Shown here: positions 21,809 through 29,233 of the stretch, in pieces | Layout: the number at the start of each line of letters is the position of its first letter | How positions within the stretch are numbered: the first letter of the stretch is position 1 | Program-made: the position numbers and the translations under genes | Origin: Nitrosopumilaceae archaeon | GTDB taxonomy: Archaea; Thermoproteota; Nitrososphaeria; Nitrososphaerales; Nitrosopumilaceae | Direction: 5' to 3' | Assembly (NCBI GenBank): GCA_965207375.1 | Contig: CBDBMG010000003.1 | Location: forward strand, 800,001 to 864,000 | Length of the DNA: 64,000 nucleotides | The notes under the pieces: model-generated | The model's database searches: none | Seen by the model: only the letters and a program-made list of their open reading frames with translations | What the model was told of the DNA's origin: nothing

Positions 21809-22510
21809 TCTGTATGTGAGTAAAATCATTACTTATGACCAGATATTGTTCCAAGTCACACATTTTATTTACTGTTACATGTTAATATCTTATGTGGAAT
21901 ATTGACACTTCCGTGAAGTGTCAACAGCATAAAGCCAGTTTAAATGTGTATACATTGCTATGCATGTGTTCCTTAGTCATGAATCTTCCTCATTATATTC
22001 TTAACAATAGCAGTAGATTAAAATTTATTTCTTACATAGCACCAAGTTTAATGGTGTTTGTATAAGTAGTCAACTGTGCATGGCTTCATGAATTTCTACA
22101 AACGTTAGAGTACTTCGCGATTGTTTCGTGTAAAATTGGCGACATAACGAATTATGCGAAGGTTTGCGAACCTATCGCGATACTGTCGTTACCTTTTTTG
22201 CATTGTACCGTAGGTGCCTTTACTATTTGAAGCAGTGGTATATAATACTATTATAAATGGTATTTACGGTATGTTGCATAAAAAGTTTGTGAAATTAACG
22301 CGAATAGTCGTTACACCTTTGTGAAGCAATAATCGTGAAGCTGTTCGTGAAACAGTAATCATGAAACAGTAATCATGCCATTTGTTGAGAGAATGGCAGA
22401 CATGAAGTCATTGAGAATTTGCTATGACCTGTTTACATTATCTTAATTAGTTTTAATTGTATTAGACCCAAATGATAATTACTTGGTGTAAGATACTGGC
22501 TTGCTTCGTG

Positions 22511-22625
22511 GTGAAAGCTACCTTACTTCGTGAAAGCTACCTTACTTCGTGATAGCTACCTTACTTCGTGAAAGCTACCTTACTTTGTGAAAGCTACCTT
22601 ACTTCGTGACAGCTACCTTACTTCG
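22511..22625. repeat. ~19-bp tandem repeat (GTGAAAGCTACCTTACTTC)x6
   Basis: Seen directly. Confidence 0.9.
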
Positions 22626-23019
22626 CAATTGAAACTTCCTCTGAAGCGATGCACTGGTTTTCTTTGTTTCGTCGATAAAAAACTTTGCCCTTCACGGTAC
22701 GAGCCGCCTTTTTTTGAAGCAATTACCGATATATTATCAGATGCAGAATCACGTGAGGAACAAAATGGCGCAAGTTGTTTTGTAATAGGAGCAATGACGG
22801 CCAAGTTATGGCCGCTTTTCTAAATGCATGCAGGCGAAAAGGAAGAAGAATGATTTCTTTTGTTATTTTGAGCCTTCCTGAGGACGGATGATTTTATCGG
22901 AGCTGCTTGCCAATGTGACCATTCGAATCAGAATTTAATGGTGAGTAATAATATAATTTAAATGTTTTTATAGGCCGTATAATATTTAAGCTAGCCCTGT
23001 TTGTTTGCTTGCGTGTGGT

Positions 23020-23103
23020 TAAAAACCAGTATACTGGCTAATGCGGGTTATAGACCCTAAACGCATAAGCCAGTATACTGGCTTATGCGGGTTAGAGGGT
23101 TAA
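23020..23103. mobile_element. piggyBac-like terminus
   Basis: ...GCGGGTTAGAGGG|TTAA with repeated palindromic GCCAGTATACTGGC subterminal motif; other end not found. Confidence 0.5.
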
Positions 23104-23500
23104 ATGGAATTATAGTCAGCTTGTACAGCACTCTTTTGTTCACTTAACCACAATTTCGTTAACCTAAAATTGATGATCATCAAATAGAAATGTGATCTTG
23201 TAAGGTGCTAACTAATTGCGGTTTACTATGATCTATTTCTTGATGGTGAGCAATGGTATTAACACTACGTAAGTATAAGCAGGACATTTAGGGTTGGCTA
23301 TTTTTGAAATTCCTGATTAGTTACTTGGTAAGCATGCCAAATGTATTCCCAAAATGTGTTTTCCATTTTTGTGCTTGTAATTTATCATTCATTGAACAGT
23401 GGTGAATTTTGACATCATTAACATAGAGAAATACTGGCTAAATTACTTAACTAACTAATTTTAATTACAATCAAAACATAATTCTTTAATTAATTTAATG

Positions 23501-25732: not shown

Positions 25733-26719
25733 ATGTCAAGTTATGAACCCAAGAGGACTAGTGCTTATTCCAAGGATTTAAGGTGGCGAATGATTTACCA
25801 GAGATTAGGTTTGGATTTAAGTTTTAGAGCCGTTGCGGACAACTTAGGCATTGATTCATCTACCGTTCATCGAACTGTTGAACTGTTTTTAAAAACTGGA
25901 GATGTAGAGAAAAAGAAATATGATGGATCCAATTTAATAAGAAAAGTGACAGATGAAATAAAGTATTTTATTATCCATGTTGTGCTAGACAATCCCGGTA
26001 TAATGGTGCACGAGATACAAAATGAAATTTTGACAACTTTTAACACGAGGATGGCAGAGTCTACGATTTGTCAGATTTTGCATAAGTTACAATTTTCCAG
26101 GAAAAAGATGTGTATTGCTGCTACACAACAAGATGAAATGCTGCGTGCATTGTTTTTCTTTCTACAAGGCTAACATGTTTGTGTTCCTTGATGAAACTGG
26201 GACAGATAGAAGAGATGTAATTTGCAAGTACGTATGCATATGGAACCTATTGTAGCACAGAAATTATTAGTGAGGGGTCAGCATCTTTCTACAATAGCAT
26301 TCATGAGTACAGCAGGTTTGCTAGATTGTGCCACCATAACTGGTGGCATAAATGGTGATGTGTTTTATGAATTTGTTCACAGTAAACTGCTGTATCATTT
26401 AAATCCATTCAATGGATCTAATTCAAAATCAATAATAATTATGGATAATGCCTCAATTCATTCTGTTGAAGGCATTGTTGAAATGATTCAACAGGTTGGT
26501 GCAATAGTAATATTTCTCCCTCCATATTCACCAGACTTCAATCCTATAGAGGAATTGTTTTCTAAAGTGAAAAAGAAAATTAAATGGTATGAAAGTGACC
26601 TGCATAGCAATGAAATGGATTTACAAACTGTAATACAAACTTCTTTTTGTCATGTAACCCCTGAGGACTGCTGTGGGTGGATTGCTAGTACTGGCATTTA
26701 TCACATGGACCAAGATTAA
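25733..26719 (+). pseudogene. IS630/Tc1-like DD34E transposase
   Basis: N-terminal HTH (AYSKDLRWRMI), FVFLDETG, IIMDNASIH, FLPPYSPDFNPIEELFSKVK; 34 residues between D2 and E; frameshifts near 26160 and 26230. Confidence 0.9.
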
Positions 26720-26851
26720 ACATATAAACATATATATCTATAGCCACATCTTTAGCCATGTGCATTAATCAAACAATTTTCATGCATGTACATACGTATA
26801 TAAATAAAGTTATTGATCACATATAGCTATAAGGGTTTATATTGGTTCATG

Positions 26852-27925
26852 TTAATGGGTTAACTTTCTTAATGAGTCTAGCACTAACTGCTTTTATTCA
26901 ATAAACTCTTGCTGTGTTAACACATTTTGCTCCAAGAGTGCTTGTAGCTCACGTAATTCCTGTAATTTCTTCATTCTGAGGTCAGTTATTTTACTTGGGG
27001 ATATTCCAACACCATTAGACTGAGTGGTGTTAGGGGAGGCCATACTAGTGGAAATACTGTTGGAATTATTGTTGTTATTCTCAATCACTAATGAAGCACT
27101 AGTTGGTGGGGGCTTTACAGCATCTGTAAAAGTTTTAACAGCTCCAGTAATAGCATCAGCTAAAGACATCTGCTTAGATTTCTTTGGTTGATTGACAAGA
27201 AACTTATAACATCCTTACTATCATACTTACCAGTCATTATTAGCCTTGCCCAGCACCTGAGTTGTGGAATAGAATATTTATTGCCATGCTTTGTTTTCAA
27301 CTGTTGATATATCTCTTCTAGTTCATCTTCTATTTGCTGTCGTTTAGACGGTGGCTCGTCTTCAGCTTTTTTGTGTCGCTTACCCTCTAATTGCTATTGA
27401 TTCCTTGCTTCACACCACAACATAAAGGTTCCTTTTAATTTACTTAAATTCTTATTCATGTTTTCTAAATCCTTCTGACACATCAGCCAATACTTTGTCA
27501 ACTGCTTACCAAAAAAGTACCCTACTTTAAAATCAATGGTTTCAGGTAACAAGGTGCCAAGCTCATTCATAAGTTTCACCTTGACTTCAGCGATCGAGTG
27601 AAATTTTTCATGAAAGCTATGAAAATCTCGTATTATGAAATCACTCTTTTTGGCTGGGTTAATTATTTTTACTCTAGTCATACTCTTCCTACAATAAAAA
27701 CAAAACATGATAAGAACCGTACATGCAGCCATTTTACATGTAAAGCCTTCAACCCTTTCGTCCTCCTGCCAAACTCTAAAAATGACGTAATTCAGGTAAC
27801 CGAATAAAACAGTAAGTTGATTCAACGATACATCTAACAACAAATTAACTCACAATGATTGGCTCTTCAGAAGTTAAAACCTCGGTTTCAGACGAAATGA
27901 GCAAAGAATCATACAAGGGATCCAT
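26852..27925 (-). pseudogene. Transposon-associated protein with C-terminal SHOCT-like domain
   Basis: FKVGYFFGKQLTKYWL..LWCE, LKTKHGNKYSIPQLRCWARLI, C-terminus LRELQALLEQNVLTQQEFIE*KQLVL; in-frame stops; 5' start uncertain. Confidence 0.6.
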
Positions 27926-28672
27926 TTTAACACACTAAAATCATGTCAACAATATTTAAACGCTGGTGAGCTGTACGGATTACGGATTACGAATTTAAGT
28001 TGCAAGTTTCTGTGAACTGTCTGTAATTTTGCCTAACAGTTATGCACGCCTCGCAAAGTATTATTACATTCTGGGCAAAGGTTTGCGAAGTACGCCGGTA
28101 CACGCCCAATTATTATAGGCTATATACATATCGTGACGTAGCGGCTATTCGCCAAAAGTTTGGCTAAAGCGGTTAGCCTCAGACACTCAGCTTGCGAAGG
28201 TACCGCTTTAGGGCAGCAAAGAACGCAGGATACTTTGCAAAGGTATTTGCTTTGCATGCAAAAGGATATAGTGATGATAGTTTGGCGTGGCCTTGCCTCT
28301 ACACGCTCACTAAATTATTTAGATGCATCTGTTAGGCTTGCTGTTAGGTTAGCCATACCGTTAAATAGACCATGCACACGTAAAGCACGACCATGGACGT
28401 GTAAAACGCACTGTGCTATACGAGAAGTATGCAGGATACTACGCGAAGGTTTGCATTGTGTGACAAATTATGCCTCGCTTCGCAATGCATCGCATACGTA
28501 GTTCTTGTAAGTATTCTGCATACGTACGTATATACAGTACCACGACTCACGAAGTATGTCATTGATTGCAAATCGCGTGACAATTTCGCAAATAACTTCG
28601 TGATTTAGCGCCTTACGCAAAACTTCACGAATGTATCACGACCAACTCGCAAACTTTTTTATGCAAAGTACC

Positions 28673-29233
28673 GTAATATGGAGTGATGAGACCACTGTGC
28701 AGTTAGAAACTCATCGACATTTCTGCTACTGAAAAATAGGAGAGAAGCCTAGATTAAAGCCCTGCCCTAAACATCCCATCAAAGTCCATGTGTGGACGGG
28801 CATTAGTAAAAAGGGAGCCACCAATGTCTGTATTTTCGAGGGAAAGATGGATGCACCACTTTTTTGTCAGATTCTTTGGCAGACACTTGTACCATTCATT
28901 CAAGAGAAGTTTCCTCCGCCTGCTCTTCACAAGCTGATGCAGGACAACGATCCAAAACACGCCTCCTGTTATGCTCAAAATTTCTATGAAGAAGCTGGAA
29001 TTAACTGGTGGCAAAAACGCCACCTGAGTCGCCTGACTTAAACCCGATCGAAAATGTCTGGCATGAACTTAAAGAACACCTGCGAAGAGAGGTAAAGTCA
29101 AGAAACAATCAGGAACTTATTGATGGTGTTTCTCAGTTCTGGGCCACAGTTAATATACACAAGTGTTTATGCTATATTAATCACTTGAGAAACAAAAGTT
29201 ATTGAAGCTAATGGTGATGCTACCGGCTACTGA
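28673..29233 (+). pseudogene. Tc1-like DD34E transposase catalytic domain (5' truncated)
   Basis: VIWSDETTVQLE, HVWTGISKKG, MQDNDPKH, TPPESPDLNPIENVWHELK, ANGDATGY*; frameshifts. Confidence 0.88.

What the first reader, a model, noticed from the sequence alone, without database searches (positions are those of the whole stretch)
22267..28673. Candidate new multi-gene Tc1/IS630-type transposon: TIR - BEN gene - DD34E transposase - SHOCT-like gene - TIR
Seen: related TA-flanked CGGTA TIRs bracket three genes, and the same BEN family lies beside the same TIR type at 2501-4665. Known: Tc1/mariner/IS630 elements are normally 1-2.5 kb and single-gene. Inference: a lineage carrying its own DNA-binding regulator and an oligomerising accessory protein, possibly for autoregulation, targeting or anti-silencing. 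The TIRs are imperfect, so a composite of two elements is possible.
Basis: partly seen in the sequence, partly recalled or inferred. Interest (0 to 1): 0.8.

Follow-up and report, generated by a model that had tools for sequence, protein, structure and literature searches.

The report
Two nested two-gene sponge transposons
The supposed three-gene transposon is an old, gene-dead Tc1-type element carrying a BEN-domain gene, into which a younger, unrelated transposon with its own transposase and a second gene has jumped.

Summary
The window is animal (probably sponge) DNA binned with a bacterial genome. The TA-flanked CGGTA inverted repeats at 22265 and 28676 are real, and three gene-like units lie between them. 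They do not form one transposon.

The repeats belong to a Sleeping-Beauty-like Tc1 family. Its own transposase is missing here. It is present at three other loci (A, C, D), each time followed by a convergent BEN gene.

The DD34E transposase and the "SHOCT-like" gene form a separate 2,442-bp element, N (25582-28023). N has its own TA|CAGA... ends, about 2-3x read depth in 4 of 4 runs, and unique contigs that stop at its edges. Homologues of N's two genes share four exact contig lengths in other assemblies. BEN homologues share none with them.

All three genes in the window copy carry stops or frameshifts. Run contigs show near-identical N sequence in which two frameshifts and one stop read open.

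Verdict: a nested composite of two Tc1/IS630-superfamily families, each with one accessory gene. Interest is moderate. Repbase and Dfam could not be checked.

The parts
22265..22350 (+). Left end of outer element B: TA, then CGGTATGTTGCATAAAAAGTTTG... and a subterminal region with CGTGAA-type repeats
   Evidence: Inverted repeat with 28656-28676. 77% over 88 nt to the left end of copy A at C4:794532.
22511..22625 (.). 19-bp tandem repeat, 6.1 copies (GTGAAAGCTACCTTACTTC), inside B's left part
   Evidence: Tandem Repeats Finder, 94% matches.
22643..23104 (.). Unrelated very-high-copy repeat inserted in B
   Evidence: 6 other full or partial copies in contigs C3/C4. Summed contig depth is about 500x that of neighbouring bins in 4 of 4 runs.
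23504..24855 (-). BEN-family pseudogene, large 3' exon: coiled-coil-like start, Pro-rich repeats, BEN domain. In-frame TAG at 24274-24276 and 24154-24156; frame change at about 23638-23653
   Evidence: 67.6% DNA identity to copy A's BEN at 2511-2840. tblastn to A, P0167 and P0200.
25183..25416 (-). BEN-family pseudogene, first exon: about 60-aa beta-barrel domain (weakly Tudor-like)
   Evidence: 49% aa identity to copy A's exon at 4081-4323. A profile built from 47 sequences hits only these two ORFs in C2-C4. Model pLDDT 80.9. Tudor rows at Z 5.8 and 5.5.
25582..28023 (+). Nested element N (2,442 bp), flanked by TA at 25580-25581 and 28024-28025; ends TA|CAGAATC... and ...ACTGTCTG|TA
   Evidence: Best TA-flanked 40-nt inverted match in the search intervals, 23/40, reached by 2 of 300 shuffles. 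Depth in bins 25610-28149 is about 2-3x the flanks in 4 of 4 runs. Zero-difference contigs end at 25621 and start at 27996.
25733..26719 (+). N's DD34E transposase (DDE_3), broken in the window by two frameshifts at about 26150-26245
   Evidence: Pfam DDE_3 76.5 bits. 728 homologues of about 330 aa, best 73-81% identical. Alignment A1. Run contigs carry 7 extra bases at 26230-26243 that reopen the frame.
26855..27681 (-). N's second gene ('SHOCT-like', about 270 aa, single exon, convergent with the transposase): TAG at 27394-27396, frameshift near 27204, TAA at 26894-26896
   Evidence: 12 homologues (one is the window's own ORF), 237-271 aa when full length. SHOCT is below cut-off. Run contigs have +CTGG behind 27204 and A>G at 27396.
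28026..28676 (+). Right subterminal region and right end of B (...CAAACTTTTTTATGCAAAGTACCG|TA)
   Evidence: 74.7% over 91 nt to copy A's right end at 4578-4667. Exact pattern match at 28650-28675.
28673..29232 (+). Copy C: C-terminal 188 residues of a Tc1 transposase, starting at residue 148 directly at B's right end
   Evidence: tblastn, 49.5% to copy A's transposase. DDE_3 hits.
29846..30186 (-). Copy C: BEN domain, convergent with the transposase fragment
2504..4296 (-). Copy A: BEN-family gene of 3 exons (about 4296-4095, about 3990-3873, 3692-2504), with one in-frame TAA at 2651-2653
   Evidence: BEN 18.9 bits, below the 23.2 cut-off.
4370..4667 (+). Copy A: right subterminal region with 5 TCGCGA sites (4390-4628) and the right end. 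Its left partner is at C4:794532, outside the window
22114..22213 (+). Solo right end of a related element (E), 51 bp left of B
   Evidence: 71% over 93 nt to copy A's right end. Two TCGCGA sites.

Best explanation
22265-28676 is a nested composite in an animal (probably demosponge) genome.

The outer element B is an old, non-autonomous member of a Sleeping-Beauty-like Tc1 (DD34E) family. The full form of that family is: left end, Tc1 transposase (+), BEN-family gene (-), right end. B has lost the transposase and keeps only the BEN gene, now a pseudogene. A high-copy repeat has inserted at 22643-23104.

At a TA between the BEN gene's 5' end and B's right end, a younger and unrelated IS630/Tc1-superfamily element N (25582-28023) has inserted. 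N has its own ends and two convergent genes: a DD34E transposase and a roughly 270-aa protein with a SHOCT-like C-terminal helix pair.

Shown: the ends, the gene order, the nesting boundaries, recurrence of the Tc1+BEN pair, and linkage of N's two genes elsewhere.

Inferred: (1) Each family moves by ordinary TA-targeted cut-and-paste, catalysed by its own transposase. (2) The BEN protein (Tudor-like barrel, basic linker, coiled coil, BEN domain) binds the TCGCGA array that sits in its own promoter and the right subterminal region. That would regulate the element or mark its chromatin. (3) N's second protein is an oligomerising cofactor or regulator of N's transposase.
For: Host DNA: C1 has an ORF fraction of 0.73-0.91; C2-C4 have 0.06-0.35. 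One N-transposase homologue is named by its source as Dysidea avara.

Family anatomy. Copy A (C4:794532 to window 4667) has ends matching 31 of 32 nt. It encloses an intact 335-aa Tc1 transposase and the BEN gene, with a P-element-like insertion between them. A and B are collinear in five blocks: left end, BEN, mid exon, first exon, right end.

Recurrence. tblastn with A's transposase finds 3 loci of this clade in 2.14 Mb of host DNA (A, C, D). All 3 have a convergent BEN domain 0.3-6 kb downstream. D's transposase is only 51% identical to A's, so the pairing is old.

N. The best TA-flanked inverted match lies at 25580/28025 (23/40; 2 of 300 shuffles reach it). The same edges appear independently in reads. 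Depth in X1 is 379-739 per bin across 25610-28149, against 213 in the left flanking bin and 279-285 in the right flanking bins. X3, X4 and X7 behave similarly. Zero-difference contigs end at 25621 and begin at 27996.

Linkage of N's genes elsewhere. Four exact contig-length coincidences join transposase and SHOCT-like homologues: 62381 (P0010/P0129), 114735 (P0138/P0136), 4651 (P0003/P0164) and 2168 (P0159/P0132). A 2,168-bp contig holding a 331-aa and a 200-aa product has no room for a BEN gene. None of the 53 BEN homologues' contig lengths equals any of those in these lists (compared by eye).

Younger N. Run contigs carry +7 nt at 26230-26243, +4 nt at 27204 and TAG>CAG at 27396. With these changes the SHOCT-like frame is open to residue 263 and the transposase frame is open from 26165 to its stop.

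TCGCGA. There are 125 sites in 2.14 Mb (0.058 per kb), but 5 lie within 240 bp of A's right subterminal region, 2 in E and 1 at 25563 in B. The BANP BEN domain binds a CGCG sequence (PMC10206803, abstract seen in the listing).
Against: Only 2.14 Mb of the host genome is held. No second full copy of B or N could be read base by base.

N's inverted repeat is weak (23/40). Its left-terminal 10 nt appear not to be shared with other copies: the contig ends imply sharing only from about 25592.

Linkage of N's genes elsewhere rests on equal contig lengths, not on seen DNA.

B's flanks do not match. The right flank is a Tc1 transposase starting at residue 148, but no N-terminal half lies left of B or anywhere in window 1-36000. 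B may therefore be a recombinant of two copies, or rearranged. TA duplications cannot discriminate.

Every BEN copy whose large exon can be read is broken: A has 1 stop, B has 2 stops and a frame change, C has frame changes. D holds only an open 163-aa BEN ORF whose upstream part I did not examine. So no intact Tc1+BEN element was seen.

D's ends were not found, and C's right end was not found.

Binding of BEN to TCGCGA is pure inference.

Repbase and Dfam were not available, so both families may already be catalogued.
Confidence: 0.7

Rival explanations
1. One reading: one 6.4-kb Tc1/IS630-type transposon whose CGGTA ends are used by the internal DD34E transposase and which carries BEN and SHOCT-like genes as two accessory genes.
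For: The ends bracket all three genes and abut TA.
Against: The same end type encloses a different transposase in copy A: Sleeping-Beauty-like, only 27% identical to N's over 99 aa. The segment 25582-28023 has its own TA-flanked ends, higher copy depth and contig breaks at its edges. N's two genes appear together on a 2,168-bp contig elsewhere. BEN homologues share no contig length with them.
Confidence: 0.05
2. 22265 and 28676 are not the two ends of one insertion. B is a chimera made by ectopic recombination or deletion between two neighbouring copies of the same family, or its ends come from two separate partial elements.
For: The right flank is a Tc1 transposase starting at residue 148. 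The left flank (22214-22264) is not the preceding part of that gene, and no N-terminal half exists in window 1-36000. Four or five ends of this family lie within 35 kb, which gives substrates for recombination. B's two ends are less alike than A's (90% of 21 nt against 31 of 32).
Against: B is collinear with A in all five alignable blocks, with a left-type end on the left and a right-type end on the right. A recombinant between two same-family copies would still show the family's organisation, so this rival changes B's history and not what the parts are.
Confidence: 0.2
3. BEN is not cargo of the Tc1 family. It is a host or other-element gene family next to which Tc1 copies happen to lie, through target preference or nesting in a larger repeat.
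For: No intact Tc1+BEN copy was seen. One BEN fragment (C3:621735-621899) has no Tc1 hit within 10 kb on either side. D's and C's outer ends were not found.
Against: A's near-perfect ends enclose both genes, and B's ends enclose BEN. Orientation and order are the same at 3 of 3 transposase loci, although the transposases have diverged to about 50% identity. BEN homologues sit on many 1.5-5 kb contigs in other assemblies, as repeats do.
Confidence: 0.1

Closest known systems
[quoted passage not shown]
   Same: The outer family has TA-flanked inverted ends. Its 335-aa transposase has HTH_Tnp_Tc3_2 (27.7 bits, below Pfam's 31.5 cut-off) and DDE_3 regions, 34 residues between the second D and the E (counted by me on the sequence), and E 8.4e-25 to SB100X.
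   Different: It carries a second, convergent 3-exon gene for a BEN-domain protein between the ends. Full copies are therefore at least about 4 kb, not 1.6 kb (the usual size is recalled, not taken from a call). B itself has no transposase.
IS630/Tc1/mariner-superfamily DD34E elements outside the Tc1 family proper
   Same: N has a DDE_3 transposase with N-terminal helix-turn-helix regions, DD34E spacing, TA flanks and CAG... termini.
   Different: It has a second, convergent single-exon gene (about 270 aa, no Pfam family above cut-off). There is no sequence-level match to any solved transposase. I could not place it in a named clade, because no reference sequences were available for a tree.
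PIF/Harbinger elements (transposase plus Myb-like DNA-binding protein); recalled, not from a call
   Same: A eukaryotic cut-and-paste transposon with one catalytic gene and one DNA-binding accessory gene. This is the closest functional analogy for Tc1+BEN.
   Different: A different superfamily, a different target duplication and a different DNA-binding fold. A requirement of the accessory protein for transposition is known there and untested here.
Ciliate TBE and Tec elements (multi-ORF Tc1/mariner relatives)
   Same: Tc1/mariner-type DD34E transposase together with extra ORFs, one of them on the complementary strand (PMC7325037, passages read).
   Different: Ciliate-specific, with very long ends or telomeric ends. 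The extra ORFs are a zinc-finger protein or a recombinase, not BEN or SHOCT-like proteins.
BEN-domain transcription factors (BANP, BEND3, Insensitive)
   Same: A C-terminal BEN domain. Family members P0200 (27.5 bits) and D's ORF (33.5 bits) pass Pfam's cut-off. A CGCG-containing hexamer is clustered beside the gene, and BANP binds a CGCG sequence (PMC10206803 and PMC11472053, abstracts in the listing).
   Different: Encoded inside a transposon. It has an N-terminal Tudor-like barrel and a Pro-rich repeat region. A's and B's own copies score below Pfam's cut-off. DNA binding is untested.

Membership tests
Tc1 family (outer element B and its relatives) | Terminal inverted repeats flanked by a TA duplication | tested here: met
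   22264-22284 / 28656-28676, 90% of 21 nt, TA on both sides. A's ends match 31 of 32 nt. TA is uninformative as proof of a single insertion.
Tc1 family (outer element B and its relatives) | DD34E Tc1-type transposase between the ends | tested here: not met
   For B itself no Tc1-type transposase lies between 22265 and 28676, so B is non-autonomous. For copy A the feature is met: 335 aa, DDE_3 82.9 bits, SB100X E 8.4e-25.
IS630/Tc1/mariner superfamily (nested element N) | DDE_3-type transposase with DD34E spacing | tested here: met
   DDE_3 76.5 bits in the window and 87.2 bits in P0002. 34 residues between DNASIH's D and NPIE's E, counted on alignment A1. The window copy is frameshifted.
IS630/Tc1/mariner superfamily (nested element N) | Own inverted ends with a TA target duplication | tested here: met
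   TA|CAGA... at 25580 and ...TCTG|TA at 28025, 23/40, reached by 2 of 300 shuffles. The edges agree with depth steps and contig ends in 4 of 4 runs. The repeat itself is weak.
BEN domain (PF10523) | Score above Pfam's gathering cut-off (23.2 bits) | tested here: inconclusive
   B's copy gives no hit. A scores 18.9 bits and P0167 18.2 bits, both below cut-off. Homologue P0200 scores 27.5 bits and D's ORF 33.5 bits, both above it. B is 60-77% identical to A and P0200 across the domain.
SHOCT (PF09851) | Score above Pfam's gathering cut-off (27 bits) | tested here: not met
   15.4 bits (window), 20.6 bits (P0125) and 17.4 bits (P0128). This is a resemblance of the C-terminal helix pair only.
Tudor-like beta-barrel (first exon of the BEN gene) | Structural match clearly above background | tested here: inconclusive
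   Model pLDDT 80.9. Foldseek found nothing at E <= 0.001; the best consistent rows are JMJD2A Tudor, probability 0.72, TM 0.41-0.46. VIA-align gave JMJD2C Tudor Z 5.8 (rmsd 7.0, 63 aligned) and ARID4B Tudor Z 5.5 (rmsd 5.3, 60 aligned), under the tool's caution line of Z 8.
   BEN pairs with a different transposase at A, C and D. BEN homologues share none. This is indirect, because contig DNA could not be read.

The most novel reading that the evidence does not exclude
Sponge genomes harbour two independent Tc1/IS630-superfamily lineages that have each kept an accessory gene through long diversification. One is a Tc1 lineage whose Tudor-like+BEN protein binds a TCGCGA array in its own promoter and right subterminal region. 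That would auto-regulate the element or steer it to particular chromatin. The other is an IS630-like lineage with a new oligomerising cofactor family. Two-gene organisation, so far known in animals mainly from PIF/Harbinger (recalled), would then have arisen repeatedly inside the 'single-gene' Tc1/mariner superfamily.
Probability: 0.35. Interest if true: 0.65.

Novelty: new variant of a known kind. Interest (0 to 1): 0.45.

Why it matters
Tc1/mariner elements are the textbook minimal transposon: one gene between two ends. They are the basis of gene-transfer tools such as Sleeping Beauty.

Animal lineages of this superfamily that stably carry a DNA-binding or chromatin-reader gene, or a second protein of unknown fold, would show how such elements add self-regulation or targeting. 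They would also give testable accessory factors.

There is a practical point too. The locus shows how nested insertions can mimic a multi-gene transposon. It also shows that 2.1 Mb of host DNA sits in a bacterial genome bin rated 0.06% contaminated.

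Tried and rejected
- A fuzzy regex for the ends was too permissive and was replaced by BLAST. A gap-cheap alignment of the right subterminal regions was uninformative.
- Two scans of genome contigs found no relative: the N transposase alignment and the Tc1 transposase.
- The metagenome-contig scan gave only two distant loci (43% and 24% identity), which were not used.
- An alignment of the Tc1 copies was too divergent for a scan.
- Exact look-up of the A and D transposases and A's BEN ORF found them not in the collection.
- D's inverted ends were not found.
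- Earlier-findings look-ups returned nothing.
- The protein atlas gave no usable hit for the SHOCT-like protein and only sub-0.9 unnamed clusters for the first-exon domain.
- The AlphaFold model of the SHOCT-like family had low confidence (mean pLDDT 56.1). Foldseek against PDB found nothing at E <= 0.001. A profile search against PDB sequences gave 0 hits.
- No RNA holder was listed among the runs.
- A joint 25187>28280 seen in one contig each in 2 of 4 runs could not be interpreted, because the letters between the two sides are not known.
- Pfam on 10 longer proteins holding the first-exon domain gave no informative family.
- Literature: no paper in the held library links a BEN domain to a Tc1-type element (terms 'BEN domain'+'Tc1'+'transposon', 3 papers, none relevant; 'BEN domain'+'transposable element'+'transposase', 7 papers, none relevant; searches likewise). 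One search was rejected for a bad character.
- Repbase and Dfam were not available. Supplementary files of papers were not consulted.
- I considered and rejected a reading in which 28613-28676 encodes upstream transposase residues (a weak stretch). That stretch is the family's right end, as in copy A, where no transposase follows.

Full report
CONTEXT

The window is G000:C4:800001-864000. Of the four contigs, C1 (2.16 Mb) has an ORF fraction of 0.73-0.91, like a bacterium. C2-C4 (2.14 Mb together) have 0.06-0.35. The window holds spliced genes, DNA transposons of animal types (P-element-like and hAT), and a transposase whose one named homologue comes from the demosponge Dysidea avara (68% identity). 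So this is host, probably sponge, DNA binned with a bacterial genome. Only 2.14 Mb of that host is available.

THE OBSERVATION

The inverted repeat is real: 22264-22284 and 28656-28676, 21 nt, 90% complementary, each arm next to TA. The 26-nt end pattern occurs exactly at 4642-4667 and 28650-28675. It appears in none of 100 shuffles.

BLAST with 100-nt ends finds five ends of this family in the host contigs:
- left-type ends at C4:794532 (5.5 kb before the window) and at 22265;
- right-type ends at 4667 and 28676;
- a more distant right end at 22213.

Between 22265 and 28676 lie a BEN-family gene (-), a DDE_3 transposase (+) with DD34E spacing, and a - strand gene with a SHOCT-like C-terminus. 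All three are broken in the window:
- BEN has two in-frame TAG codons and then a frame change at 23638-23653.
- The transposase has two frameshifts around the first catalytic D. They produce 4 stops when read in one frame.
- The SHOCT-like gene has a TAG, a frameshift near 27204 and a TAA 14 codons before its true end.

Of the five nonsense codons (these four plus the TAA in copy A's BEN), four replace a Q of homologues or neighbouring repeat units.

WHOSE ENDS ARE THESE?

Copy A runs from C4:794532 to window 4667. Its two ends match in 31 of 32 nt. From left to right it contains:
- a nested palindromic insert;
- an intact 335-aa transposase (C4:795434-796438; DDE_3 82.9 bits; E 8.4e-25 to Sleeping Beauty SB100X);
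- a P-element-like insertion;
- a three-exon BEN-family gene on the minus strand (2504-4296);
- about 300 bp of subterminal sequence and the right end.

A and B align in five collinear blocks: left end, BEN domain, mid exon, first exon, right end. B has no Tc1 transposase.

tblastn with A's transposase finds three loci of this clade:
- A itself.
- C, at window 28673-29230 (49.5% identity, residues 148-335), followed by a convergent BEN domain at 29846-30186.
- D, at C4:541295-538378 (50.9% identity, split by a foldback insert). A convergent BEN ORF ends 320 bp from its stop and scores 33.5 bits for PF10523.

So 3 of 3 transposase loci carry a convergent BEN gene. A much weaker hit (C3:285491-285838, 30% over 121 aa) has no BEN hit near it.

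Of five BEN loci, A, C and D lie beside a Tc1 transposase. B lies inside Tc1-type ends. One (C3:621735-621899) is an isolated 55-residue fragment.

The CGGTA ends therefore belong to a Tc1 family whose full form is: end, transposase, BEN gene, end. B is a transposase-less derivative.

THE NESTED ELEMENT

It has no sequence match in the PDB. It has 728 homologues of about 330 aa.

Several lines place it in a separate element N at 25582-28023:
1. I searched 25486-25733 against 27682-28100 for TA-flanked 40-nt inverted matches. The best match is at 25580/28025 (TA|CAGAATC... and ...ACTGTCTG|TA), with 23 of 40 matches. Only 2 of 300 shuffles reach this score.
2. Logan contigs of four runs from two studies were laid at 80% likeness or more. 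Every bin from 25610 to 28149 has roughly 2-3 times the depth of the flanking bins. In X1 the bins read 379-739, against 213 on the left and 279-285 on the right. X7 reads 36-68, against 27 and 19-22.
3. In X1 and X3, contigs identical to the window end at 25621 and begin at 27996. With 31-letter words this puts shared sequence at about 25592-28025.
4. A perfect TCGCGA of the outer family's subterminal type lies at 25563, just left of the insertion point.

N's second gene (27681 to 26855, - strand, single exon, convergent with the transposase) has 12 hits including itself. Full-length forms are 237-271 aa and share a conserved C-terminus.

Homologues of the two genes share four exact contig lengths in other assemblies: 62381, 114735, 4651 and 2168. 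The 2,168-bp contig holds a 331-aa transposase and a 200-aa SHOCT-like product, so it has no room for a BEN gene. None of the 53 BEN homologues' contig lengths equals any in those lists (compared by eye). This linkage is indirect, because the contig DNA could not be fetched.

AGE AND STATE

N is the younger element. The run contigs that cover 26230-26243 carry 7 extra bases. In all four runs the contigs covering 27204 carry an extra CTGG. 27396 reads G in all of X4 and X7 and in about half of X1 and X3.

Applying these variants inside a script opens the SHOCT-like frame to residue 263 and the transposase frame from 26165 to its stop. Intact 331-334-aa transposases also fall in the same 90% cluster as the window's fragments. 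So near-identical copies or alleles exist in which these breaks read open. Some of the window's breaks may even be assembly errors.

The outer element is at single-copy depth at 80% likeness or more. It is about 68% identical to A in coding DNA. Its TCGCGA sites are mostly decayed: 0 perfect sites in 28026-28676 against 5 in A.

IS B ONE INSERTION?

B's right flank is copy C's transposase, starting at residue 148. The 51 bp on B's left, and everything in window 1-36000, lack the N-terminal half. Two histories fit. B may have inserted into C and the locus was later rearranged. Or B may be a recombinant between two neighbouring same-family copies, with the DNA between them deleted. TA duplications cannot tell these apart. 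This affects B's history and not the identity of its parts.

THE ACCESSORY PROTEINS

The BEN-family protein of A and B has five parts:
- a first-exon domain of about 60 residues;
- a basic linker;
- a short coiled-coil-like stretch;
- Pro-rich repeats, expanded in B;
- a C-terminal BEN domain.

A and B score below Pfam's cut-off for BEN, but homologue P0200 and D's ORF pass it.

The first-exon domain has 204 representative relatives at E <= 0.001, of which 68 are at E <= 1e-10. In the host contigs it occurs only in A and B. It folds with pLDDT 80.9 into a small beta-barrel. Its best structural neighbours are Tudor domains:
- Foldseek: JMJD2A rows, probability 0.72, TM 0.41-0.46, none at E <= 0.001.
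- VIA-align: JMJD2C, Z 5.8, rmsd 7.0, 63 aligned; ARID4B, Z 5.5, rmsd 5.3, 60 aligned.

This is a lead, not a membership.

The SHOCT-like protein stays unexplained. No Pfam family passes cut-off. The model has low confidence apart from a helical core at residues 100-160 and the C-terminal helix pair. No fold, PDB or atlas match was found.

HOW IT MOST LIKELY WORKS

From family membership I infer that both families move by TA-targeted cut-and-paste, each using its own DD34E transposase. B could move only in trans.

For BEN I commit to the following model, at about 35-40% likelihood. The protein binds the TCGCGA array, of which 5 sites lie in 240 bp of A against 0.058 per kb genome-wide. That array lies both in its own promoter or 5' region and in the right subterminal region. 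The protein would then auto-regulate the element or mark its chromatin. BANP's BEN domain binds a CGCG sequence, and BANP and BEND3 prefer unmethylated CpG motifs (PMC10206803 and PMC11472053, abstracts seen in the listing).

For N's second protein I propose an oligomerising cofactor or regulator of the transposase. This rests only on conserved linkage and the helical C-terminus.

COMPARISON AND NOVELTY

Known multi-ORF relatives in this superfamily are the ciliate TBE and Tec elements (PMC7325037, passages read). The closest functional analogy is PIF/Harbinger with its Myb-like second protein (recalled).

Searches of the held library found no paper that links BEN to a Tc1-type element. Repbase and Dfam could not be consulted.

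I rate this a new variant of a known kind. The three-gene element as proposed is not real, so interest is moderate.

Noticed in passing
whole window; G000 contigs C2-C4: 2.14 Mb of eukaryotic (probably sponge) host DNA sits in a bacterial genome record that is rated 99.95% complete and 0.06% contaminated. Marker-based checks do not see it.
   Followed up: partly
22643-23104: A 460-bp repeat with about 500x the depth of single-copy neighbours in 4 of 4 runs. It has 6 further copies in the 2.14 Mb held and ends in a 28-nt perfect palindrome (23062-23089). Type (SINE or MITE) not determined.
   Followed up: partly
L008:4100-5694 and window 332-1847: A P-element/THAP9-like transposase (TNP-like RNase H N and C domains; Tnp_P_element_C below cut-off) is nested between copy A's Tc1 transposase and its BEN gene. 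This explains A's 10-kb length.
   Followed up: partly
33256-34865: hAT-type transposase ORFs (hAT C-terminal dimerisation region, 68.8 bits) just right of copy C.
   Followed up: partly
C4:794890-795400 (L008) and C4:539222-540907 (L009): Foldback or palindromic inserts lie inside copy A's 5' region (197-nt arms, 97% identical) and inside copy D's transposase.
   Followed up: no
26150-26245 and 27204: The window differs from the run contigs by small indels exactly where its N genes are frameshifted. At 27204 this holds for all covering contigs in 4 of 4 runs. At 26230-26243 it holds for the dominant contigs in X1, X3 and X7. So some breaks may be assembly errors or private alleles.
   Followed up: partly
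14887-15006, 16236-16494, 17180-17483: Long dinucleotide-type simple repeats with strong GC and AT skew, similar to one at C4:792777-792849.
   Followed up: no
19365-21282: A large inverted duplication (19365-20007 against 21282-20634, 79% over 701 nt) with further internal palindromes, left of the solo end E.
   Followed up: no
C1 (bacterial contig): At least 15 DDE_3 (IS630-type) transposase copies lie in the bacterial chromosome. They are unrelated to the host elements: 36-45% identity over 51-71 aa to N's transposase.
   Followed up: no
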